Part shown: in pieces, positions 15,461-28,644 of the stretch
Layout of the letters: each line of letters opens with the position of its first letter
Position numbering within the stretch: the first letter of the stretch is position 1
NCBI GenBank assembly: GCA_964588685.1
Contig: CAZPQG010000005.1
Coordinates: 5,916-69,915 of the forward strand
Direction: 5' to 3'
DNA: 64,000 nt
Origin: an uncultured Pseudomonadales bacterium
Lineage (GTDB): Bacteria > Patescibacteriota > Microgenomatia > UBA1400 > PJMF01
Translations under genes and position numbers: made by a program
The notes under the pieces: generated by a model
Told to the model about the DNA's origin: nothing
Databases searched by the model: none
The model's input: the letters and a program-made list of their open reading frames with translations, nothing else

Positions 15461-16846
15461 ATGACGAGGACGAAGAGTAGAGCTCGAAATTTTAGCGGTG
15501 CTGCATTTACTAATTTCCAGGCCTGCTTTAATTTTATGAAACTTGCTTTGGTTGTTCCTCATATTTTTATGAACCAGGAGCTGCTGCCTCGGGTTATTTT
15601 TTCGCCCGGACAGTTGGCTTTAACTTTAAGTCATGGTTTGGCTGAGCTGGGTCATGAAGTTACGCTTTTCACTCCCGGTTCAGTGGCTGATTTGCTTGAA
15701 AGCAATCATGTCCATAATGTAACTGCTGATTTAGCTTTTTTTGCAGCAGAGCTGGAGCAGCGGCAAGATGATTATCTGGCATTATTGAAAAAGCACCCCT
15801 TAACTTTTATTACTTTGTCGCGCCAAGTGCAGTCGGAATTAACAGCCCAAGCTTATCAGTTGGCTAACGAGGGTCGATTTGATCTGGTCCATGTGTGGTG
15901 TAATGAAGAAGAGCATGCTGTGATTAACGCCCGCTTTTGTCAAAAGCCGGTTGTTTTTAATCACCATGAGCCGTTTAACTTTTTAGTGCGCTATCGTTCT
16001 ATTTTTCCCAAATACGCTGCTTTAAATTGGATTTCTATCTCTTTTGCCCAGCGGCAAACTTTTGCGCAGCAGCAGGCTTTTACCGAACAAGCAAGAGAGG
16101 AGCGGCAGGCGGGCAGTTTGCAGCAGCGAAGCCAACAATTACCGGCAGTAAATTGGGTAGGCAATGTCTATCACGGCCTGAATCTTCAACAGTTTCAGTT
16201 TAATTCTCAACCTAAAGACTATTTATTGTATATGGGTCGAGTTATCCGGCCCAAGGGTGTACATTATGCTATTGTCTGCGCCAAACAGCTGCAAATGAAA
16301 TTGAAGATTGCCGGCAAACATTATGCCGGCCACAGTAAGGACCAGTATTGGCAGGAGTTTGTTGAACCGGAGTTGGACCATGATCTAATTGAGTATGTCG
16401 GCTATATTAAAGAGCAGTGTGTAAAGCAAAAATTATTGGGCCAGGCTCAGGTTTTACTGATGCCTTCAATTTGGCAGGAGCCGTTTGGCTTGGTGATGTT
16501 GGAAGCCATGGCTTGCGGCACACCGATCGCTGGTTTTGAAGAAGGCGCTGTGGCTGAAGTGGTGAAGCCTAAAAAAAGCGGCGCTTTAGCAGCCTATCAG
16601 GCGGAAGAAAAAGTATTTAAAAACGGTAAAGCAGTCAATAAAAGTTGGCAGCAGCTGCAGCAAGATTCTCAATTTCAAGAAAATGTAAAAGCATTGGCTC
16701 AGGCCGCAGCACAAGCCAAGCAAGTTGATCGAGCCGGCTGCAGAGCTTATTTTGCCGCCAATTTTTCCAGCCAACAGATGTGTCAAGGCTATGAGCAGAT
16801 TTATAAAAAGTTAATTGACAAGCAAAACAATAAAAATAGAAGTTAG
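15461..16846 (+). CDS. Glycosyltransferase, GT4/group-1 family. The true start is probably the ATG at 15536 (MKLALVVPHIF...).
   Basis: The C-terminal EPFGLVMLEAMACGTPIAG is a GT4-type EX7E motif region. The N-terminal LALVVPHIF resembles a GT-B Rossmann start. Confidence 0.65.
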   Translation: MTRTKSRARNFSGAAFTNFQACFNFMKLALVVPHIFMNQELLPRVIFSPGQLALTLSHGLAELGHEVTLFTPGSVADLLESNHVHNVTADLAFFAAELEQRQDDYLALLKKHPLTFITLSRQVQSELTAQAYQLANEGRFDLVHVWCNEEEHAVINARFCQKPVVFNHHEPFNFLVRYRSIFPKYAALNWISISFAQRQTFAQQQAFTEQAREERQAGSLQQRSQQLPAVNWVGNVYHGLNLQQFQFNSQPKDYLLYMGRVIRPKGVHYAIVCAKQLQMKLKIAGKHYAGHSKDQYWQEFVEPELDHDLIEYVGYIKEQCVKQKLLGQAQVLLMPSIWQEPFGLVMLEAMACGTPIAGFEEGAVAEVVKPKKSGALAAYQAEEKVFKNGKAVNKSWQQLQQDSQFQENVKALAQAAAQAKQVDRAGCRAYFAANFSSQQMCQGYEQIYKKLIDKQNNKNRS

Positions 16847-16944: not shown

Positions 16945-17769
16945 TCAAATCACCACCAAGTCTGCTTTAATATGCGGGTGAGATTCATAATTTACCAGCT
17001 TAAAATCATTAATCGTAAAGTCGTCAATATCTTTCACTTCAGGATTAACCCACAATAGGGGCCTTTTTTTTGGCTTTCTGTGAATTTGCTCCTCGGCTTG
17101 CCGTAAATGATTTTTATATAGATGCAAGTCGCCGATCGTATGCACAAACTCGCGCGCTTCCAAGCCTGTTACTTGAGCCACCATCAACAGTAATAGTGAA
17201 TATTGACTTATATTAAAGGGTAGACCTAAAAAAGCGTCAGCGCTGCGTTGATACAACTGCAAGCGTAATTTACCCTTAGTGACGTTGAATTGAAAAAAAG
17301 TGTGACACGGAGGCAGCCTCATTTCGTCAAGTTGAGCCGGATTCCAAGCTGAAACCAGCATAGCTTTGGAATAAGGCTGGGTTTTTATTTCTTGGATAAC
17401 ATTTTTAAGCTGATCAATATGGCCGCCCTCATAATCAGGCCATTTTCGCCATTGATAGCCGTAAACCGGTCCCAGCTCACCATCTTCTTCAGCAAAATCA
17501 TCCCAATAGTGAATTTTTTTCTCTTGCAGCGGTTTTATATTAGTGCTGCCTGATACAAACCATAATAGTTCATTGGTCATGGTCTTAAAAGGCATTTTTT
17601 TTGTGGTTAGAATGGGAAAACCACGCCGGAAGTCAAAACGCATTTGATAGCCAAAAGTGCTTTTGATGTCGTGTACACCGCGAGTTTTTTTACTTTTGCC
17701 GTTTTCCAAAATGTGTTTGAGGGCTTGTAGGTATTGCTGCATGGTGTTTAGTATAGCATTGTCAAACAA
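16945..17769 (-). CDS. thyA: Thymidylate synthase ThyA. The start is probably the internal Met, MQQYLQAL..., near 17742.
   Basis: RMLPPCHTFFQF active-site Cys. SAWNPAQLDEM and DLHLYKNH conserved blocks. Confidence 0.9.
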   Translation of the reverse strand: MFDNAILNTMQQYLQALKHILENGKSKKTRGVHDIKSTFGYQMRFDFRRGFPILTTKKMPFKTMTNELLWFVSGSTNIKPLQEKKIHYWDDFAEEDGELGPVYGYQWRKWPDYEGGHIDQLKNVIQEIKTQPYSKAMLVSAWNPAQLDEMRLPPCHTFFQFNVTKGKLRLQLYQRSADAFLGLPFNISQYSLLLLMVAQVTGLEAREFVHTIGDLHLYKNHLRQAEEQIHRKPKKRPLLWVNPEVKDIDDFTINDFKLVNYESHPHIKADLVVI

Positions 17770-17888: not shown

Positions 17889-18218
17889 ATGACAAAGGAG
17901 GCAAATATGCCAGCATTAGATCAAACAGGACCAAGAGGTCAGGGGCCAATGACCGGTCGCGGCTTAGGTGCTTGCAATGATGGCCCGGGTTTAGGTATGG
18001 GGCGAGGAAGAGGCTATGGACAGGGTTTCGGACGAGGTTTAGCTAGAGGTTGGGGTAGAGGTTACCCTTGTTATTTGATAGGGCGTCATTTTTTTGCGCC
18101 GGAAAATCAAATAGCTATGCTAGAGCAGCAAAAAGCTATGATGGTAGAAGAAAAAGAGATGCTTGAGCGGGAGATTACAGCTGTAGACGAAGAAATTGAA
18201 GCTTTGCAAGAAGAATAA
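17889..18218 (+). CDS. DUF5320-like small protein: a Gly/Arg-rich N-terminus followed by a coiled-coil.
   Basis: MPALDQTGPRGQGPMTGRGLGAC... then GRGRGYGQGFGRG, and a C-terminal heptad-repeat segment. The DUF5320 assignment comes from remembered family features. Confidence 0.5.
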   Translation: MTKEANMPALDQTGPRGQGPMTGRGLGACNDGPGLGMGRGRGYGQGFGRGLARGWGRGYPCYLIGRHFFAPENQIAMLEQQKAMMVEEKEMLEREITAVDEEIEALQEE

Positions 18219-18261
18219 TATTTTATGTGCTGTAGTCAGTTCAATTTTTAGCTGATTGTGT

Positions 18262-18310
18262 AAAAACAGCCTGTGTTTATGCTAGAATAATTTTAAACCA
18301 GGCTGTTTTT
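18262..18310 (+). terminator. Candidate long-loop hairpin/terminator after the DUF5320 gene.
   Basis: AAAAACAGCCTG...(25 nt)...CAGGCTGTTTTT has 12-bp perfect arms and ends in a T-run. Confidence 0.35.
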
Positions 18311-18398
18311 GTGATTAGGTTACTTTTGGAAGCGTTAATCACAAAGGGCTGCCGATGAATTATACTGCTGTTAGTTTTTTAAATTTAATAATCACACT

Positions 18399-18680
18399 AT
18401 GCCGAGACCTAAACTTTGTAAAAGAATTAGATTTGATCCTGAAGTATGCTATTTTAAACCTAAAGGGGTTCCTTTACGCGAATTGCAAGTGGTAGAGTTA
18501 TCTTTAGAAGAAGTTGAAGCTCTACGCTTAAAAAACATTAAAAATTTGTCACAAATAGAATGTGCTCAAAAAATGAACACTTCTCAGAGCACTGTGCAAA
18601 GAATTTTAAGCTCTGCTTATCAAAAAGTTTCACAAGCTTTAATTGAGGGCCAAGCCATTCGCATCAGTCAATCAGAGTAA
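18399..18680 (+). CDS. DUF134/UPF0251 family putative DNA-binding protein.
   Basis: MPRPKLCKRIRFDPEVCYFKPKGVPLRELQVVELSLEEVEALRL, plus a sigma-70 region-4-like HTH (QKMNTSQSTVQRIL). Confidence 0.6.
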   Translation: MPRPKLCKRIRFDPEVCYFKPKGVPLRELQVVELSLEEVEALRLKNIKNLSQIECAQKMNTSQSTVQRILSSAYQKVSQALIEGQAIRISQSE

Positions 18681-18801: not shown

Positions 18802-19776
18802 TTAATTTATTTTCTTTACGGTAATGCCTGCCTGCTCCAGCATTTTTTTACCGTAACCGGCTGAGTGGTCATGCTGATAAACTACTGCCTGCAAATTAGT
18901 TCTAGCTAGCATCCGAGCGCAATTAGGGCAGGGCAGCAGATTAATGTATAGGCAGGCGCTGTCCAACTTCACTCCCCGGCGCAAGGCTTTAAGCACGAGT
19001 TCAACTTCAGCATGATTGGTGTCGCAATATTGCAAATCTTGAGGAGGTGTTAAATGTTTTTCCTTGCTTGCGCCCTGATGAAGCATGTAAGTTTCATAAG
19101 GCACAACTTGATTATGGGCTGACAGTACAAAACGCTGTTTTTTAGCTAGTACCGCTGCAGTTTGAAAAGTATAGTCAAAAGAGAGTCGGCTTTCTAGTGT
19201 TGCCAGCTGCATCAGTTCTGATTCAGCATATTGCTGTTTGCGGGCAGGTTCAATGGCCGGCATATTTTTTTTAATTTGTTCTAAATAGCTTAAGGCTTCA
19301 GTCTTATCCACAAATGAGCTGACTAATTTATAAGGAAGCTGTCTCTTTTTTAATTGGCGAAATTCTGCGCGGTAATGAAAAGCTCGATGCCAAGAGCCGT
19401 TAATACCGATTACAGCGGCCCAATTGCCTTGTTGAATAAGGCGTGGCGCTTCAGCTTGAGGGTAGAGTAGAGTCTTAATTTGTTCGCCGTCGCTGTGTTT
19501 AATTTTGCCGCTCCTGTATTTCAGTTGCTTTAGAGCTGAAGTTAATGGCGCTAGACTTAAGGCCTTAAAAGGCAACGAGTTTTCTAAGCCGGCAATATAT
19601 TCTTCTTCAATACAACCCCAAATTAATTTTTTATCAGTATTGCTTAATAATTGGCGTGACAGCTGCCTGATACGTTCTCCTGAAATTTCTCGGGGGCCTA
19701 GAATTAAAATTGGCTGCTCTGTGGTCAGCTGTTTTAAGTCTTGAGGAGTGAGATCAGACCAAGAGTAGTGATTCAT
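18802..19776 (-). CDS. Fusion protein: an N-terminal domain of about 220 aa of unknown function, plus a C-terminal dCMP/cytidine deaminase zinc-binding domain.
   Basis: The C-terminus carries HAEVELVL...PCPNCARML, the CDA-fold HAE...PCxxC motif. The N-terminal 220 aa have no recognisable motif. Confidence 0.6.
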   Translation of the reverse strand: MNHYSWSDLTPQDLKQLTTEQPILILGPREISGERIRQLSRQLLSNTDKKLIWGCIEEEYIAGLENSLPFKALSLAPLTSALKQLKYRSGKIKHSDGEQIKTLLYPQAEAPRLIQQGNWAAVIGINGSWHRAFHYRAEFRQLKKRQLPYKLVSSFVDKTEALSYLEQIKKNMPAIEPARKQQYAESELMQLATLESRLSFDYTFQTAAVLAKKQRFVLSAHNQVVPYETYMLHQGASKEKHLTPPQDLQYCDTNHAEVELVLKALRRGVKLDSACLYINLLPCPNCARMLARTNLQAVVYQHDHSAGYGKKMLEQAGITVKKIN

Positions 19777-19840: not shown

Positions 19841-20416
19841 TTATGGTTGATATTTTTTTTCAAATCTTTTGAGAATTCTTTTAATTTTTTTGGCCTCCTT
19901 TTTGTAAAGAGCTGCGTTTTCCAACGGGGTATACCGCAGCCGCCGGTAATTCCATTGGCATAAATCAGGCTCATCAAAAGGAATAAACTGCATATGCAGA
20001 TGATCAGTAACTGTCATTTGGGCTTTCTCGCCTCCTTCACGAATTAAACTCCACATACCTTTGCAGCCATGCACTTGTTTGATAATTTTTTTGGCTAAGT
20101 AGGCAAACTTGCGCATTGTTTCCCATTGCTTTGGCGTGAGTTCTTTGGGGGATCGAATATGCCGGCGGGGGATAGCCATGAGTTGGCCGTCAATATAGGG
20201 ATACAAATTAATCGTCAATACTATTTCATTTTCCTCCAGCAGAATATATTTGTCTTTTAAGTCGCAGAAGACGCACTTGCCGGTGTTTTGCCAAATTTGA
20301 TCATAATGCCCCTTTGCCCGGGCATTTTTTTTATAGTTCTGACCCGTTTTTTGATGCGAGCTTTTAGAATTAGAAGAGCTGTGTGCCATGGCTTGATTAG
20401 ATGGGTTGTACGGCAT
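19841..20416 (-). CDS. HIT-superfamily protein, HxHxQ variant (GalT/Ap4A-phosphorylase-like branch), with a low-complexity N-terminal extension.
   Basis: CVFCDL (HIT N-terminal CxFC). ...GQLMAIPRRH. DHLHMQFIP carries HxHxQ instead of HxHxH. Confidence 0.5.
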   Translation of the reverse strand: MPYNPSNQAMAHSSSNSKSSHQKTGQNYKKNARAKGHYDQIWQNTGKCVFCDLKDKYILLEENEIVLTINLYPYIDGQLMAIPRRHIRSPKELTPKQWETMRKFAYLAKKIIKQVHGCKGMWSLIREGGEKAQMTVTDHLHMQFIPFDEPDLCQWNYRRLRYTPLENAALYKKEAKKIKRILKRFEKKYQP

Positions 20417-20461: not shown

Positions 20462-21040
20462 TTATTTAATTTCGGCGTCTTTTAACGGATTTTTCAAAGG
20501 ATTTTTTCCGTTTTTAAGATATTCTTTTAAAATTTCATTGAGTTGAGCGCTGACACCCTTTTTTAAAATTTTGGTAGTGGAAATAAAAGGGGATTGCCGG
20601 TCAACCAATTTTACCTGGCCGCCGTTTCTGACAACTGTGTTATATTCCGGTGATTCTTTATAGCCTTTATTCCATTCCTCCCTAACAGTGACATAAAAAT
20701 CAGGTTTTAGTTGTTCTAAAGTCGGCTGATTACTCATTTGAGGGACAATAGTGACTAAATCAACAAAGCGGACGTAGCTCAGCATTTCAGCTCGGATTTT
20801 TTCATCTAAAATTGGTCGGTTAGGGCCTTTTAAAGTGCTAATGGTTTGATTGGAACTGATGCCGACCACTAAGACGTCAGCCAGTTTTTTAGCCTCATGC
20901 AGGTACCTTACTTGCCCGACGTGCAGCATATCCCAGGCGCCGGCAGTATAGACAATAGTTTTGCCTTTGGCTCTGATTTTTTCTCCGGCTTTTTTAATTT
21001 GTTGAGGTGCGATTAAGCGCTTTTTCCAGATGAAGGACAT
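20462..21040 (-). CDS. Cytidylyltransferase-superfamily sugar/alcohol-phosphate nucleotidyltransferase, closest in pattern to RfaE domain II or TagD.
   Basis: TIVYTAGAWDMLHVGQVRYLHEAKKLADVLVVGISSNQTISTLKG aligns with RfaE-II [45 protein letters not shown]. C-terminal GGQVKLVD...STTKILKK resembles GGEV..L....STTNIIKK. Confidence 0.65.
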   Translation of the reverse strand: MSFIWKKRLIAPQQIKKAGEKIRAKGKTIVYTAGAWDMLHVGQVRYLHEAKKLADVLVVGISSNQTISTLKGPNRPILDEKIRAEMLSYVRFVDLVTIVPQMSNQPTLEQLKPDFYVTVREEWNKGYKESPEYNTVVRNGGQVKLVDRQSPFISTTKILKKGVSAQLNEILKEYLKNGKNPLKNPLKDAEIK

Positions 21041-21095: not shown

Positions 21096-21128
21096 TTACC
21101 CGCACAAGCGAGCGGGCAGCAGACAGGA
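21096..21128 (-). terminator. Weak candidate terminator between the APH-like kinase gene and the nucleotidyltransferase gene.
   Basis: On the minus strand: CCCGC-TCGCTTGT-GCGGG, followed by TAAAGTTTTTT. Confidence 0.3.
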
Positions 21129-21168: not shown

Positions 21169-22368
21169 TCAACTGCTGTTATTGCTAGTTGACAATAAAT
21201 TCTGTTTTAACAACCAATTTTTAGTACGCACAAAATGTTCGTTTTGAGGCAAAAATTGATAGGGATTGTGCCGTAAAAATTTATAAAAATCATAGAATAG
21301 AAAAAAAGTTGTTAAAGACTGCAACAATTTAGGTTCCGGTAGTTGCTGCTGGCCGCGCTTGGCATAACCGGAGTTGAGAAAGTATTTTTTAACTTGGAGT
21401 TCAGTTTTGTATTGGCAGTCAATCAGTAAAAAGGCCAGTGTTCTGGCCACGTCGAGTACTCTTGGTCCTAGAGCTGCTTTTTCAAAATCTAAAATACCGC
21501 TCACAGTCAGTAATTCTTGGCTTGATTGATTGTCATCCGGGCTTGATTGATTATGATTTGTTTGATTTTTTTGCCTAGTTTTTTGAGGATCTAAAATAAA
21601 TTTTTTGGCAGCCGGATTCTTTTGTACAAAAGTGTATGGCTTATTTTGAAATAAAATATTGCCGCGCACAAAATCTAAATGTAAAATTTGTTGATTTGGT
21701 AAATTTGTAAGATTTTTTAAAACTTGTTGCAAATAAGGAAAGACGTTAAGTTTTGGGTTAAGTTTTAGTTTTTCTTTAAGTGCTTTTTGCACCCCTTCTT
21801 TATAAAAATATGTATTCATTACGTTTAATTTTTCCTCTAAAATCAATCTTTCTCGTTTTATTAAATTGAACTGCTTTGGCTTAAATGCTGCTAAATCGTG
21901 ATGCAGCTGACCCAAAACTTGGCCCAACAGTTTAATGTGCTTCATAGTATAATTGTCCCAGTTAATAGTAGAGCCGGGTAGGTAGTTATACAAGCAGCAA
22001 TAGTATTTGCTGTTGGAATGAGTAATTTGAAGGATGGATTTTAGCCGGCCGGCTTTTTTGTTATTAGCAGCCTTATGAGCGGCTGTGCCGGGAGTGTTAG
22101 TTAATCCAGAGTAGGTTTGGCGGGTCGGCCAGCCTTGCCGGGCTAAGTAATTTGAGACAAGATTGGCTGTTTTAATTTTAGGCAGGATATCAGGTTCATT
22201 TTTGTAAAAAATTAAGGCCAATTTTTTCTCATCCTTTAGTTCCAAAGGAATAATATTGTTGCGATATCCGGTTTGTGGTTGTAAAATTCGTATAGCTTTT
22301 GTCTCTAAGCCATAAGCAGCCAGCACTTTTAAGATTAACGCTTGGTTATGATAAGGCTTGTTAAGCAT
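21169..22368 (-). CDS. Phosphotransferase of the APH/choline-kinase/homoserine-kinase-II fold. Substrate unknown.
   Basis: HLDFVRGNILF is the HxDxxxxN catalytic-loop motif. ILDFEKAALGP is a DFG-like DxE/D segment. The protein is 399 aa. Confidence 0.55.
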   Translation of the reverse strand: MLNKPYHNQALILKVLAAYGLETKAIRILQPQTGYRNNIIPLELKDEKKLALIFYKNEPDILPKIKTANLVSNYLARQGWPTRQTYSGLTNTPGTAAHKAANNKKAGRLKSILQITHSNSKYYCCLYNYLPGSTINWDNYTMKHIKLLGQVLGQLHHDLAAFKPKQFNLIKRERLILEEKLNVMNTYFYKEGVQKALKEKLKLNPKLNVFPYLQQVLKNLTNLPNQQILHLDFVRGNILFQNKPYTFVQKNPAAKKFILDPQKTRQKNQTNHNQSSPDDNQSSQELLTVSGILDFEKAALGPRVLDVARTLAFLLIDCQYKTELQVKKYFLNSGYAKRGQQQLPEPKLLQSLTTFFLFYDFYKFLRHNPYQFLPQNEHFVRTKNWLLKQNLLSTSNNSS

Positions 22369-22417: not shown

Positions 22418-23218
22418 ATGCGTATTACTGCTATTAAAACTCCGCTTGTTAAACCTCATGAAGATTTGCAGCAGCTAATTGCTGATAATATTGAGCAGAT
22501 CAGTGAAAAATCGGTTTTAGTTATTACTTCAAAAATAATTAGTTATGCTCAAAATCGATTAGTGCCTATTAAGACCGGCACCAGGCAAGAAAAGCATCAA
22601 CTGGTTCAACAGGAAGCTGATCAGTACCTTGCTCACACCTATTCCCAATATGATATCATTTTAGCAATTAAAAATGGTCATTTAACAGCTAATGCCGGAA
22701 TAGATCAATCAAATGCTGACGGCCATTATGTTTTATGGCCTGAAAATTTACAAGAGACTATCAATCAACTTTGGCATTTTGCGCGCCGGCATTATCAAGT
22801 GCAGGAACTGGGCATCATTGTTACTGACAGTCGCACCTGGCCTTTAAGGTGGGGGGTGGTAGGCACTTGTTTGGCTCACTGTGGTTTTAAACAGCTGCAT
22901 GATTATCGAGGCAAAAAAGATTTATTTGGCCGTAAAATTAAATCAGTGCAGCTCAATATTGCAGAAGCAATTGCCTCAGCAGCCGTACTGGCTATGGGTG
23001 AGGTGGCAGAGCAAACACCGCTGGCTCTAGTCAATCAAATCAACCACATTGCATTTCAGGATCGAGTGCCCACTGAACAAGAATTAAAAGATCTTAAAAT
23101 TAAGTTGGCGGATGATATGTATGGTCCGTTTTTAAAAAGTGTTCCGTGGCAGAAAAACAAATCCAAGCATAAACCTGACCAAGAAGTTGGGTTAGGGCAG
23201 AAAAATAAGTCTATTTAA
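22418..23218 (+). CDS. CofE-like (F420-0:gamma-glutamyl ligase family) protein.
   Basis: VLVITSKIISYAQNRL, IIVTDSRTWPLRWGVVGTCLAHCG and AEAIASAAVLAMGE resemble conserved CofE-family blocks. Confidence 0.5.
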   Translation: MRITAIKTPLVKPHEDLQQLIADNIEQISEKSVLVITSKIISYAQNRLVPIKTGTRQEKHQLVQQEADQYLAHTYSQYDIILAIKNGHLTANAGIDQSNADGHYVLWPENLQETINQLWHFARRHYQVQELGIIVTDSRTWPLRWGVVGTCLAHCGFKQLHDYRGKKDLFGRKIKSVQLNIAEAIASAAVLAMGEVAEQTPLALVNQINHIAFQDRVPTEQELKDLKIKLADDMYGPFLKSVPWQKNKSKHKPDQEVGLGQKNKSI

Positions 23219-26807: not shown

Positions 26808-27347
26808 ATGCAAGTATTTTTAATTGTGGCTGTCAGCCTAGATGGCTTTATTGCTCAAACAATTGAGCAACCGTCAACTGACTGGACCAGTGCGGAAGAT
26901 AAACAGCATTTTCATCAAAAAACTAAGCAGGCGGGTATAATTGTAATGGGCAAAACAACTTTTGATACCATTGGCAAACCTTTGCCTAAGCGTCTTAATA
27001 TTATCTACAGTTATAAGACTAAGCAGGATTTAACGGCAAACTATAATTTAACAGCTGATCAGACAGCAGAAGATAGGCTGAGAGTCACATCTTTGCCGCC
27101 GGCTCAATTGGTGCAGCAGCTTAAAAAAGAAGGCAGACAGCAACTGGCTATTTGCGGCGGTAGTTCGATTTATACGCAATTTATCCAAAGCGAGGTAGTT
27201 GACAAAATGTTTTTAACAGTTGAACCTGTTATTTTTGGCGACGGCATTAAACTTTTCAATCAACCTCTAGAGCAAAAGTTAACCTTAGTCAACAGCCGGC
27301 GCCTAAATGAAGCCGGGACTTTGTTGTTGGAGTATGATTGCTGCTAG
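26808..27347 (+). CDS. Dihydrofolate reductase family protein (DHFR/RibD-C fold).
   Basis: LIVAVSLDGFIAQ...IIVMGKTTFDTIGKPLPKRLNIIYS matches the DHFR N-terminal pattern (IAALA.D..IG....MPW......GR.T.ESIGRPLPGR.NI.LS). Confidence 0.6.
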   Translation: MQVFLIVAVSLDGFIAQTIEQPSTDWTSAEDKQHFHQKTKQAGIIVMGKTTFDTIGKPLPKRLNIIYSYKTKQDLTANYNLTADQTAEDRLRVTSLPPAQLVQQLKKEGRQQLAICGGSSIYTQFIQSEVVDKMFLTVEPVIFGDGIKLFNQPLEQKLTLVNSRRLNEAGTLLLEYDCC

Positions 27348-27464
27348 AGTATTGGCATGTGATCATTCAGCAAGATGATGAAGCTTAATTAATTGCTAAT
27401 GGCAGTTAGTCTTTACAATACAATAAATAAAATAACTAATTTTAAAAATGAATGAGGTTTAAAA

Positions 27465-27920
27465 ATGAGTCAGGCATCAAAAAATTCTATAACAGTAACA
27501 GTTAAACGTTTCGATAAAAGCCTGCCTTTGCCGCAATATCAGAGCCAAGGGGCGGCGGCATTGGATTTAGCAGCCCGCTGCTCAAAAACCATTCCGCCTC
27601 AAACTGTGAAGCTAGTGCCGCTGAATATTGCGCTGCAGCCGCCGCCCAATTATTGGGTGTTGATGTCTGCGCGCAGTAGTTTATACAAAAAAGGCTTGAT
27701 GCTGGCCAATGGTATTGGAGTAGGAGATTCTGATTATCGAGGCGACAATGATGAATATCAAGCAGCTTTATTTAATTTTACTGACCGGCCGGTTAAAGTT
27801 GAAAAAGGAGAACGGCTCACTCAAATGATGCTTTTATCCAGAAAGAAAATCATCTGGCAAGAGCGCGATAATTTTAAGACGGATGATAGAGGTGGTTTTG
27901 GCTCCACCGGGCAAAGTTAA
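27465..27920 (+). CDS. dut: dUTP diphosphatase.
   Basis: GVGDSDYRGD is the dUTPase motif 3. QGAAALDL is motif 1. RLTQMML is motif 4. Confidence 0.85.
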   Translation: MSQASKNSITVTVKRFDKSLPLPQYQSQGAAALDLAARCSKTIPPQTVKLVPLNIALQPPPNYWVLMSARSSLYKKGLMLANGIGVGDSDYRGDNDEYQAALFNFTDRPVKVEKGERLTQMMLLSRKKIIWQERDNFKTDDRGGFGSTGQS

Positions 27921-27999
27921 TTTTTTTAAACCTGATGCCGTATATGTGCTGTTTGCGGCTTAGTATTTATTATTAATTTTAAAGACTGGAACAATAAAA

Positions 28000-28644
28000 A
28001 TGGGAAAATCATACCCCGGTTATTTGATTACTTTTGAGGGCGGTGAAGGAGGAGGTAAGACCACTCAATCTGTCCGCATCCGCAACAACTTGACCGAAGC
28101 CGGACATGATGTGGTAGTATTAAGAGAACCCGGTGGAACAGTTATCAGCGAGCAAATTCGTCAAGTTGTGTTGTCGCCGAACAATACAGGGATGGCTTTT
28201 ACTACAGAAGTATTGCTTTTTCAGGCAGCTCGAGCTCAGATTTACCGCGAAATTGTTTTGCCGTCCTTAAAAGCCGGTAAAATTGTTTTGATGGATCGTT
28301 CACGCGACAGCAGCGTAGTTTACCAAGGAATGGTGCGCGGCTTTGGACGGGATTTAATTGAGCAGCTTAATAATCTCTCCACTAAAAATATTTACCCTGA
28401 TTTAACTATTTTGCTTGATTTGCCAATAAAAATAGGTTTGGCAAGAAAAAATGATGCCGGGGAAATGAATCGTTTGGAAATGGAAGACAAAAATTTCCAC
28501 CAACAAGTACGCGAAGCTTATTTACAACTAGCAAAAGAGAATGAGCAGCAGCGTTGGATAATAGTTGATGCGCAGCAGAGCATGGAGGAAGTTGAGGCAG
28601 AAATTTGGCAGACAGTAGCAGAGGAATTAAACAGCTCAGATTAA
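28000..28644 (+). CDS. tmk: Thymidylate kinase.
   Basis: ITFEGGEGGGKTTQ (P-loop). DRSRDSSVVYQG (DR(Y/F) motif and lid). Confidence 0.9.
   Translation: MGKSYPGYLITFEGGEGGGKTTQSVRIRNNLTEAGHDVVVLREPGGTVISEQIRQVVLSPNNTGMAFTTEVLLFQAARAQIYREIVLPSLKAGKIVLMDRSRDSSVVYQGMVRGFGRDLIEQLNNLSTKNIYPDLTILLDLPIKIGLARKNDAGEMNRLEMEDKNFHQQVREAYLQLAKENEQQRWIIVDAQQSMEEVEAEIWQTVAEELNSSD

What the first reader, a model, noticed from the sequence alone, without database searches (positions are those of the whole stretch)
18802..19776. dCMP/cytidine-deaminase domain fused to a 220-aa N-terminal domain of unknown function, next to thyA
The C-terminal 100 aa carry the CDA zinc motif HAE...PCPNC. The N-terminal two-thirds have no motif I recognise. 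Typical bacterial dCMP deaminases (ComEB) are about 150 aa. The gene lies in a loose dTMP-synthesis neighbourhood (thyA, a DHFR-like gene, dut and tmk within 12 kb). The extra domain could regulate or redirect deaminase activity, for example by allostery or substrate channeling, or it could be a different nucleic-acid deaminase altogether.
Basis: partly seen in the sequence, partly recalled or inferred. Interest (0 to 1): 0.5.

Follow-up and report, generated by a model that had tools for sequence, protein, structure and literature searches.

The report
Long dCMP-type deaminase with new domain
This gene encodes a real two-part enzyme found only in ultra-small CPR/Patescibacteria: a divergent dCMP-type deaminase joined to a previously unclassified nucleotide-binding-like domain, always sitting in one conserved operon (kinase, cytidylyltransferase-like, HIT enzyme, deaminase, thymidylate synthase) that probably supplies the dUMP needed to make thymidine.

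The parts
18802..19776 (-). Complete ORF, 324 aa: N-domain + linker + dCMP-type deaminase domain
19261..19776 (-). N-terminal domain (aa 1-172). Unclassified Rossmann/HUP-like alpha/beta domain. Invariant residues W6, R29, G54, G63, Y105, G127, S128, H134, F155, A161
19672..19698 (-). G-P-R29-x-I-S32-x-x-R35 loop after strand beta1 of the N-domain; putative anion/phosphate-binding loop
   Evidence: Conservation; position relative to DSSP strands; coordinates. The function is inferred
19375..19401 (-). N-G127-S128-W129-H-x-x-F-H134 segment after strand beta4 of the N-domain; second half of the putative ligand site
   Evidence: The function is inferred
19225..19260 (-). Inter-domain linker (aa 173-184), poorly conserved (18% mean pairwise identity)
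18802..19224 (-). Deaminase domain (aa 185-324 plus stop) of the dCMP-deaminase clade, divergent
19006..19014 (-). H255-A-E257 catalytic/zinc motif (70/70 conserved)
18919..18933 (-). P282-C283-P-N-C286 zinc motif (P, C and C 70/70 conserved)
19099..19119 (-). A-H-N222-Q-V-V-P226: degenerate counterpart of the G(Y/W)N(A/G) allosteric motif and NxxP of canonical dCMP deaminases (N and P invariant; spacing is NxxxP)
   Evidence: motif definitions from PMC12088426 and PMC3239186
18853..18879 (-). Y300-Q-H-D-H304-S305-x-G307-Y308, family-specific conserved motif after strand 4; includes the clade-typical Tyr
19841..20416 (-). HIT-family gene immediately upstream (HLHMQ triad variant, CxxC); closest to Ap4A-phosphorylase-type HIT enzymes. 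Obligate partner of the deaminase
   Evidence: Adjacent in 82/82 loci with median gap -4 nt. Fused to the deaminase in P0084, L021, L025, L028, L054 and in P0239, P0249, P0291, P0292
20462..21040 (-). Cytidylyltransferase-like gene (PF01467), closest to ECT and RfaE domain II; H-V-G-Q in place of HxGH
   Evidence: present in 78/82 loci
21169..22368 (-). APH/choline-kinase-fold small-molecule kinase (HxDxxxxN and DFE motifs conserved), first gene of the module
   Evidence: present in 71/82 loci
16945..17769 (-). Thymidylate synthase ThyA, downstream consumer of dUMP
   Evidence: Pfam 6e-112; within the locus in 71/82; start overlaps the deaminase stop in L087 and several other loci
26808..28644 (+). 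DHFR (26808-27347), dUTPase (27465-27920) and thymidylate kinase (28000-28644): the rest of the dTMP gene set in this window

Best explanation
The gene encodes a Patescibacteria-specific 'long-form' deaminase of the dCMP-deaminase clade. Its C-terminal 140 aa are a catalytically competent zinc deaminase that most likely converts dCMP to dUMP for the neighbouring thymidylate synthase. It is the last enzyme of a conserved, often translationally coupled module: APH-like kinase, then cytidylyltransferase-like enzyme, then HIT (or HIT-NUDIX) enzyme, then deaminase. HIT enzymes release a nucleoside monophosphate from an NMP-X compound, so the HIT protein probably hands (d)CMP directly to the deaminase. 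The N-terminal 172 aa are a new Rossmann/HUP-like accessory domain. Its invariant Arg, Ser and His residues sit on the loops that follow strands beta1 and beta4, which is where Rossmann-type folds bind phosphorylated ligands. It probably binds a nucleotide or phosphorylated effector, or docks the HIT partner. In doing so it takes over regulation or assembly functions that canonical dCMP deaminases perform through their inter-subunit dCTP/dTTP site and second zinc site, both of which this family has lost. What is shown: the architecture, conservation, fold class, clade assignment, operon and fusions. What is inferred: the substrate, the direction of flux, and ligand binding by the N-domain.
Confidence: 0.55

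Rival explanations
1. The deaminase does not act on free dCMP. It acts on a cytidine-nucleotide conjugate made by the upstream cytidylyltransferase-like enzyme (CDP-X or dCDP-X), or on CMP, dCDP or dCTP. The HUP-like N-domain holds the second phosphate or the X moiety, and HIT acts after deamination rather than before it.
For: The operon with a cytidylyltransferase-like enzyme and HIT/NUDIX enzymes, which all handle NDP-X compounds, is tight. The N-domain's best fold matches are cytidylyl- and adenylyl-transferases that bind NDP-X products. The family has lost canonical dCMP-deaminase signatures and scores low against ComEB. Precedents exist for DCTD-like enzymes acting on triphosphates: PBCV-1, XP-12 and CDADC1 (PMC12088426).
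Against: ThyA needs dUMP. The fusions fix only proximity, not the order of steps. The N-domain lacks the transferase motifs. HIT-CDA fusions lacking the N-domain exist, so an N-domain-dependent substrate grip cannot be general.
Confidence: 0.2
2. The N-domain is purely structural. It is an oligomerisation or docking scaffold that tethers the deaminase to the dimeric HIT enzyme, or replaces the canonical hexamer interface, and it binds no small-molecule ligand.
For: It lies between HIT and CDA in the triple fusions. The full-length model has a high pTM (0.90), implying a fixed inter-domain packing. It has no recognisable nucleotide-binding motif. It is dispensable in HIT-CDA fusions, where covalent linkage could replace docking.
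Against: Ten invariant residues, including two Arg, a Ser and a His on the classic ligand-binding edge of a Rossmann-type sheet, are more than a scaffold usually needs. Conservation is spread over the whole domain.
Confidence: 0.15
3. The N-domain is a second catalytic domain, for example a phosphotransferase, nucleotidase or nucleotidyl-transferase. That would make the protein bifunctional and add a fifth chemical step to the pathway.
For: HUP-class domains are usually enzymes. The invariant His134, Ser128, Tyr105 and Arg29 could form an active site.
Against: There is no invariant acidic residue for metal binding, and no HxGH, SGGxDS or ISTT signature. HHalign to the neighbouring transferase gives probability 1%. 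The operon functions without the domain in the HIT-CDA lineage.
Confidence: 0.07
4. It is a nucleic-acid-editing, toxin or anti-phage (dCTP-depleting) deaminase rather than a metabolic enzyme.
For: There are weak Pfam hits to toxin-type deaminases (MafB19 E 2.8e-10; SNAD4 and XOO_2897 about 2e-3). There are weak hits to the anti-phage dCTP deaminase models (22 bits against a cut-off of 400; PADLOC 28.6 bits). Related CDA domains fused to P-loop kinases resemble the anti-phage architecture.
Against: Those hits cover only the shared zinc-motif core. There is no immunity, secretion or defence context. It sits as a single-copy gene in a thymidylate operon in 82/82 species across a whole phylum. 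Its structural neighbours are dCMP deaminases, well ahead of TadA and APOBEC. Its partners give no PADLOC hits.
Confidence: 0.02
5. The long ORF is an assembly or frameshift artefact joining two genes.
For: None found.
Against: The identical protein occurs in independent assemblies. Full-length coverage is seen in 79 clusters and 96 species. The confident single-chain model packs both domains. The N-domain is never found encoded alone except on truncated contigs.
Confidence: 0.01

Closest known systems
Canonical dCMP deaminases (DCTD/ComEB; T4 Cd 1vq2, S. mutans 2hvv, cyanophage S-TIM5 4p9c, PBCV-1 7fh4, human 2w4l)
   Different: This protein is twice as long because of a 172-aa N-terminal domain. 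It has no second zinc site, no 'NA' after HxE, and G(Y/W)N(A/G) is degenerate. Its ComEB model score is 42 against a cut-off of 219. It is always paired with a HIT enzyme. Its oligomeric state is unknown.
Anti-phage dCTP deaminase and related P-loop-kinase + CDA proteins (NF041025, PADLOC dCTPase; P0160 and P0168 here)
   Same: An N-terminal nucleotide-binding-type domain fused to a dCMP-deaminase-type C-terminal domain, of similar total length (about 330 aa).
   Different: The N-domain there is a P-loop kinase fold; here it is an unrelated Rossmann/HUP-like domain with no P-loop. Their context is not a thymidylate operon. The window protein scores 22 bits against NF041025.
[quoted passage not shown]
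   Same: A DCTD-derived enzyme in which an extra N-terminal domain accompanies loss of canonical allosteric control. This is a conceptual precedent for 'fusion makes the allosteric site obsolete'.
HIT-CDA fusion proteins of related Patescibacteria (P0239, P0249, P0291, P0292; locus L091)
   Same: The same operon (DHFR, APH, CTPt, HIT, deaminase, ThyA, GT4) and the same HIT subfamily (about 56-61% identical to the window's HIT). The deaminase is ComEB-like and divergent.
   Different: There is no N-domain; the deaminase is joined directly to HIT. An extra TadA-like 154-aa deaminase gene follows, which is absent from all 86 N-domain-type loci.
HUP-class nucleotide-binding domains (cytidylyltransferases HldC/CCT, PPAT, NaMNAT, universal stress proteins)
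   Different: No HxGH, ISTT or USP G-x2-G-x9-G(S/T) motifs. Identity is 14% or less. The HHalign probability is 1% against the operon's own cytidylyltransferase. GT-B and ALDH half-domains score about as well, so only the general fold class is established.

Membership tests
dCMP deaminase / ComE clade of the deaminase superfamily | HxE in helix 2 and PCxxC zinc-binding/catalytic motifs | tested here: met
   H255, E257, P282, C283 and C286 are invariant in 70/70
dCMP deaminase / ComE clade of the deaminase superfamily | Closest structural and sequence neighbours are dCMP deaminases (helix-4 division fold) | tested here: met
dCMP deaminase / ComE clade of the deaminase superfamily | [quoted passage not shown] | tested here: met
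   The model has two short helices, 230-234 and 237-241, between strand 215-221 and helix 256-266. The insert is highly conserved (G235 and E239 invariant)
dCMP deaminase / ComE clade of the deaminase superfamily | Second, structural zinc site: two Cys and a His in the insert plus a Cys between helix 1 and strand 1 | tested here: not met
   No Cys in the insert in 66/70 and none in the helix1-strand1 loop in 62/70
dCMP deaminase / ComE clade of the deaminase superfamily | NxxP at the end of strand 2 | tested here: inconclusive
   N222 and P226 are both invariant, but the spacing is NxxxP, one residue longer
dCMP deaminase / ComE clade of the deaminase superfamily | 'NA' two residues after HxE (HAExNA) | tested here: not met
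   Positions 259-260 are E (57/70) and L (54/70)
dCMP deaminase / ComE clade of the deaminase superfamily | G(Y/W)N(A/G) allosteric-site motif (PMC12088426) | tested here: not met
   Position 1 is A42/T14/S8/G5. Position 2 is H40/Y20/F6. Position 3 is N70. Position 4 is R26/K20/Q7/A4. Only the Asn is retained
dCMP deaminase / ComE clade of the deaminase superfamily | TxxxT in strand 3 | tested here: not met
   The first position is S41/T21 and the second is N64/70, giving (S/T)xxxN
dCMP deaminase / ComE clade of the deaminase superfamily | Conserved Tyr between strand 4 and helix 4 | tested here: met
   Y300 in 67/70
dCMP deaminase / ComE clade of the deaminase superfamily | Scores above the curated ComEB equivalog threshold (TIGR02571, 219 bits) | tested here: not met
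   42.1 bits. Other ComEB-like fusion proteins score 109-139 bits
dCMP deaminase / ComE clade of the deaminase superfamily | Ring-shaped homohexamer; dCTP activation and dTTP inhibition; dCMP-to-dUMP activity | not testable with these tools
   Requires biochemistry or structure determination
Anti-phage dCTP deaminase (NF041025 / PADLOC dCTPase) | N-terminal P-loop kinase-like domain plus CDA; score above the model cut-off; defence-island context | tested here: not met
   22 bits against a cut-off of 400. The PADLOC match is 28.6 bits over 50 of 630 positions. The N-domain has no P-loop or AAA hit. The context is a thymidylate operon
RibD-type bifunctional deaminase-reductase | Deaminase domain fused to a RibD_C/DHFR-like reductase domain | tested here: not met
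   No RibD_C hit. TIGR00326 scores 15.9 bits against 156. The extra domain is N-terminal and not DHFR-like
HUP-class nucleotidyltransferases / USP (for the N-domain) | HxGH (or SGGxDS, or USP G-x2-G-x9-GS/T) phosphate-binding signature after beta1/beta4, and detectable profile similarity | tested here: not met
   The loop after beta1 is GPRxISxxR and the loop after beta4 is NGSWH. No Pfam hit in 34 members. HHalign probability 1% against the operon's PF01467 family. There is fold-level similarity only
CDADC1-like tandem deaminases | N-terminal domain is a (degenerate) deaminase fold | tested here: not met

The most novel reading that the evidence does not exclude
The conserved module (APH-like kinase, HxGQ cytidylyltransferase-like enzyme, HIT or HIT-NUDIX enzyme, N-domain deaminase, ThyA) is an undescribed route to dUMP/dTMP in Patescibacteria. 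A cytidine nucleotide such as dCTP is first coupled to a phosphorylated carrier X-P to give (d)CDP-X. The HIT enzyme cleaves this to (d)CMP, which is deaminated in a HIT-deaminase complex. The new N-terminal domain acts as the nucleotide sensor or docking element. This route would replace the dCTP-deaminase pathway used by host-associated Saccharibacteria such as Southlakia.
Probability: 0.25. Interest if true: 0.8.

Novelty: new variant of a known kind. Interest (0 to 1): 0.6.

Why it matters
CPR/Patescibacteria cannot make nucleotides de novo, and how they balance their dNTP pools is poorly understood. This locus defines a phylum-restricted operon seen in 96 GTDB species representatives. In it, three poorly characterised enzymes and a domain absent from the family databases searched here are locked to thymidylate synthase. 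If the module is a new way of generating dUMP, it fills a gap in metabolic reconstructions of a large fraction of uncultivated bacteria. It would also give a function to a HIT subfamily with more than 1,200 sequence clusters, and add a new regulatory or scaffold domain to the well-studied dCMP deaminase family. The hypothesis can be tested directly with four small recombinant proteins. If the protein is instead simply a dCMP deaminase with a lineage-specific appendage, the result is a modest annotation improvement: current labels range from 'hypothetical protein' to 'TadA'.

Tried and rejected
1. N-domain as a known domain. Pfam on the window protein and on 34 family members, NCBIfam, PHROGs, and PDB sequence and profile searches all gave nothing. 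The marginal TFB2 hit (E 0.27) was dismissed as chance.
3. N-domain as a degenerate deaminase (CDADC1-like) or a RibD reductase. Rejected by the fold searches.
4. Defence system or toxin. PADLOC and NCBIfam scores are far below threshold and the context is wrong.
5. Fusion artefact. Rejected.
Model coordinates are not exposed to scripts, so I could not measure the distance between the N-domain patch and the active site.
7. Source names and accessions for key proteins: none on record.
8. Literature searches for this architecture or operon in CPR or Saccharibacteria found no description. The Southlakia Tn-seq paper does not contain the gene family.
9. Promoter and terminator scans were not above the shuffled background.
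10. A profile of the APH-like kinase against the PDB gave only marginal hits (YihE 1e-3), so the kinase substrate could not be narrowed down.

Full report
**1. The observation**

Window 18802-19776 (minus strand) is one uninterrupted ORF of 324 aa. HAE lies at residues 255-257 and PCPNC at 282-286. Pfam dCMP_cyt_deam_1 matches residues 185-300 (E 7e-12). Nothing in Pfam, NCBIfam or the PDB sequence set matches residues 1-180.

thyA is at 16945-17769 (-), a DHFR at 26808-27347, a dUTPase at 27465-27920 and tmk at 28000-28644.

The frame is not an artefact. The identical protein is called on contigs from independent sequencing runs. 79 sequence clusters of about 315 aa align over 90-100% of its length. 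A scan of GTDB species representatives finds 96 species encoding the same two-domain protein.

The only correction concerns boundaries. An AlphaFold2 model built on 70 homologs is very confident (pLDDT 94.5, pTM 0.90). It shows an N-domain of about 172 aa, a 12-aa linker and a deaminase domain of about 140 aa.

**2. The C-terminal domain**

I scored the clade synapomorphies listed by Iyer et al. (PMC3239186, Table 1) and the allosteric motif described in PMC12088426 on the 70-sequence alignment.
- Retained: HxE and PCxxC (70/70), the bihelical insert, an invariant strand-2 Asn and Pro (spaced NxxxP rather than NxxP), and Tyr300 (67/70).
- Lost: the second zinc site (no Cys in the insert in 66/70), the 'NA' after HxE (now E-L), the second Thr of TxxxT (now Asn), and three of the four positions of G(Y/W)N(A/G).

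The ComEB equivalog model scores only 42 bits against a cut-off of 219. So this is a catalytically intact but strongly diverged branch of the dCMP-deaminase clade. The features that have decayed include the motif tied to dCTP/dTTP regulation and the second, structural zinc site.

**3. The N-terminal domain**

It is under selection in its own right. Mean pairwise identity is 39%, against 18% for the linker and 53% for the deaminase domain. Ten residues are invariant (W6, R29, G54, G63, Y105, G127, S128, H134, F155, A161) and several are nearly invariant (S32, R35, Q69, F70, W129, S153, Y164).

No Pfam or PHROG family matches any of 34 members. HHalign against the operon's own cytidylyltransferase family gives probability 1%.

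An exhaustive HMM search of 1.84 billion representative proteins finds the domain in only 73. Where checked, the matches are this architecture or truncated copies of it, and the domain never has a different partner.

Mapping the invariant residues on the DSSP string places most of them directly after strands:
- R29, S32 and R35 after beta1
- Y105 at the end of beta3
- G127, S128 and W129 after beta4, with H134 at the end of the helix that follows
- S153 and F155 after beta5

This is the edge where Rossmann-type folds bind phosphorylated ligands.

**4. Context: the main new finding**

I called ORFs in 82 non-redundant loci and classified them with phmmer, using the window's genes and those of two distant relatives as queries. 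The results:
- A HIT-family gene lies immediately upstream on the same strand in 82/82 loci. The median gap is -4 nt, and independent gene calls show ATGA-type overlaps.
- A PF01467 cytidylyltransferase-like gene precedes HIT in 78/82, and an APH-fold kinase precedes that in 71/82. Where either gene was not found, many of the loci are short or the deaminase lies near a contig end.
- thyA lies within the locus in 71/82, a GT4 glycosyltransferase in 64, DHFR in 62 and tmk in 26.

The most divergent branch of the family (P0145; N-domain E 5e-6) has APH, CTPt, HIT, Ndom-CDA and ThyA with every junction overlapping.

Fusions tie HIT and the deaminase together in two ways:
- HIT-Ndom-CDA triple fusions occur in P0084 and in four GTDB species.
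- HIT-CDA fusions that lack the N-domain altogether occur in an otherwise identical operon (P0239, P0249, P0291, P0292; locus L091). There a TadA-like 154-aa gene follows, and that gene is absent from all N-domain-type loci.

The partners:
- The HIT partner keeps its histidine triad (HxHxH in 65/82, HxHxQ in 16/82, the window among the latter). It is nearest to Ap4A-phosphorylase-type HIT enzymes. In 21/82 loci its ORF is 300-479 aa, the size of a HIT-NUDIX fusion, and precomputed Pfam hits confirm a NUDIX domain in L003 and L006.
- The cytidylyltransferase-like partner is closest to ECT and RfaE domain II. It carries HxGQ instead of HxGH in 71/76.
- The kinase keeps the HxDxxxxN and DFE motifs but has no close characterised relative.

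**5. Distribution**

The record titles are predominantly Patescibacteria: mostly Saccharimonadia, including complete genomes of 1.1-1.45 Mb, plus Woesebacteria- and Pacebacteria-type Microgenomates (the window's closest relatives, at 50-56% identity), Dojkabacteria and a Parcubacteria-labelled MAG. A minority of records carry other labels, which I read as mislabelling (see the items noticed in passing).

The cultivated, very reduced Southlakia epibionticum lacks any PF00383 or PF01636 protein. It has Tmk, dCTP deaminase, DHFR and ThyA side by side, all scored non-essential in co-culture (PMC10633639 supplements). This single comparison fits the module being an alternative way to reach dUMP, but it does not prove it.

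**6. How it most likely works**

- **Shown:** an intact deaminase active site of dCMP-deaminase type; a separately conserved, family-exclusive N-domain of Rossmann/HUP-like fold; an obligate operon and recurrent gene fusion with a HIT enzyme; constant association with thyA.
- **Established knowledge:** HIT enzymes cleave or transfer NMP from NMP-X compounds. PF01467 enzymes make NDP-X from NTP and X-phosphate. APH-fold kinases phosphorylate small alcohols or sugars. ThyA needs dUMP.
- **Inferred:** the HIT enzyme liberates (d)CMP, which the deaminase converts to dUMP for ThyA. The N-domain binds a phosphorylated effector and/or docks HIT, compensating for the lost inter-subunit allosteric site. 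Because HIT-CDA fusions work without it, the N-domain is an accessory to the coupling, not its core.

The rivals, with evidence for and against each, are set out in the structured fields:
- a conjugate or triphosphate substrate
- a pure scaffold role for the N-domain
- a second catalytic activity in the N-domain
- a defence or toxin function (PADLOC gives only 28.6 bits over the shared core)
- an assembly artefact

**7. Comparison with known systems, and novelty**

The protein works like a dCMP deaminase and belongs to that clade in the broad sense. It fails several defining signatures and the curated ComEB threshold, so I file it as a new variant, not as a ComEB ortholog.

Other 'nucleotide-binding N-domain + dCMP-type CDA' proteins exist. 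These include P-loop kinase + CDA proteins that resemble the anti-phage dCTP deaminase, and dUTPase + CDA fusions. Their extra domains are unrelated to this one and their contexts differ. CDADC1 offers a conceptual precedent for a fused extra domain replacing canonical allostery.

I found no publication describing this architecture or operon.

**8. Verdict**

- The protein is a new variant of a known enzyme kind, embedded in a conserved and uncharacterised five-gene thymidylate module.
- Interest is 0.6. The domain alone is a moderate curiosity. The operon, which may be an undescribed route to dUMP in a major uncultivated phylum, is what makes it worth experimental follow-up.

Noticed in passing
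window 20462-21040 (-) and orthologs in 76 loci: The cytidylyltransferase-like operon partner carries H-(V/A)-G-Q instead of the family's canonical HxGH signature in 71/76 orthologs (window: HVGQ). This suggests altered chemistry or nucleotide handling.
   Followed up: partly
window 17889-18680 (+); also L008 8994-9706 and L012 13431-14060: A DUF5320 + DUF134 (sigma-70 region-4-like) gene pair on the opposite strand is inserted between the deaminase and thyA in the window and in its closest relatives, but not in Saccharibacteria loci.
   Followed up: no
L087 3869-5293: In the most divergent branch, the ThyA that overlaps the deaminase stop codon is a 474-aa fusion: MtrA-like + thymidylate synthase + pterin-binding DUF4346 domain.
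   Followed up: no
L091 2408-4744; long 'Tmk' ORFs in many Saccharibacteria loci (e.g. L005 9518-11095): Thymidylate kinase is fused to a Thy1 (ThyX, flavin-dependent thymidylate synthase) domain in a 778-aa protein beside an operon that also encodes ThyA. Tmk ORFs of 1.6-2.4 kb are common next to the module.
   Followed up: no
L003 6991-8004, L006 6298-7290 and about 21 of 82 loci: In L003 and L006 the HIT partner is fused to a C-terminal NUDIX hydrolase domain, a second enzyme type that cleaves NDP-X compounds. HIT ORFs of matching size (300-479 aa) occur in 21 of 82 loci. My strict Nudix-box regular expression matched only 6 of the 82 HIT ORFs, so the NUDIX content of the others is unconfirmed.
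   Followed up: partly
L091 7969-8433: In the lineage whose deaminase is fused directly to HIT (no N-domain), a TadA-like 154-aa deaminase gene overlaps the fusion's stop codon. No such gene lies within 8 kb in any of 86 N-domain-type loci. Whether it substitutes for the N-domain or is simply tadA is unknown.
   Followed up: partly
window 15461-16846 (+) and 64 of 82 loci: A GT4 glycosyltransferase is almost always convergent with thyA, often with overlapping 3' ends. It has no obvious link to thymidylate metabolism.
   Followed up: no
window 22418-23218 (+): Divergently adjacent to the kinase is a CofE-like 'putative folate metabolism gamma-glutamate ligase' (TIGR04132, 251 bits, below the 350 cut-off). 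It also lies next to the module in the window's close relatives L007-L015.
   Followed up: no
L007-L013, L015, L034, L053, L056, L069 (record titles): Several GTDB records carrying this CPR-specific operon are titled 'uncultured Pseudomonadales', 'Bacillota', 'Verrucomicrobiia', 'Magnetospirillaceae' or 'Pristimantibacillus'. These are probably mislabelled MAG taxonomy rather than real occurrences outside Patescibacteria.
   Followed up: no
L083 6310-7028 (-) and L085 5397-6420: One Saccharibacteria MAG (CAVUMM01) carries extra, split copies of the Ndom-CDA gene. These may be pseudogenised duplicates or assembly redundancy.
   Followed up: no
P0160, P0168 (L089 6001-6999) and P0173: The deaminase half's more distant relatives include P-loop kinase + CDA proteins of about 332 aa (one source names Micrarchaeia). 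These resemble the anti-phage dCTP deaminase below threshold and lie outside thymidylate operons. There is also a ComEB + dUTPase fusion of 375 aa.
   Followed up: partly
window 21097-21118 (-): A terminator-like hairpin (7 bp stem, 5 GC pairs, T-rich tail) lies between the kinase and the cytidylyltransferase-like gene. The number of such sites in the region is not above the shuffled expectation.
   Followed up: no
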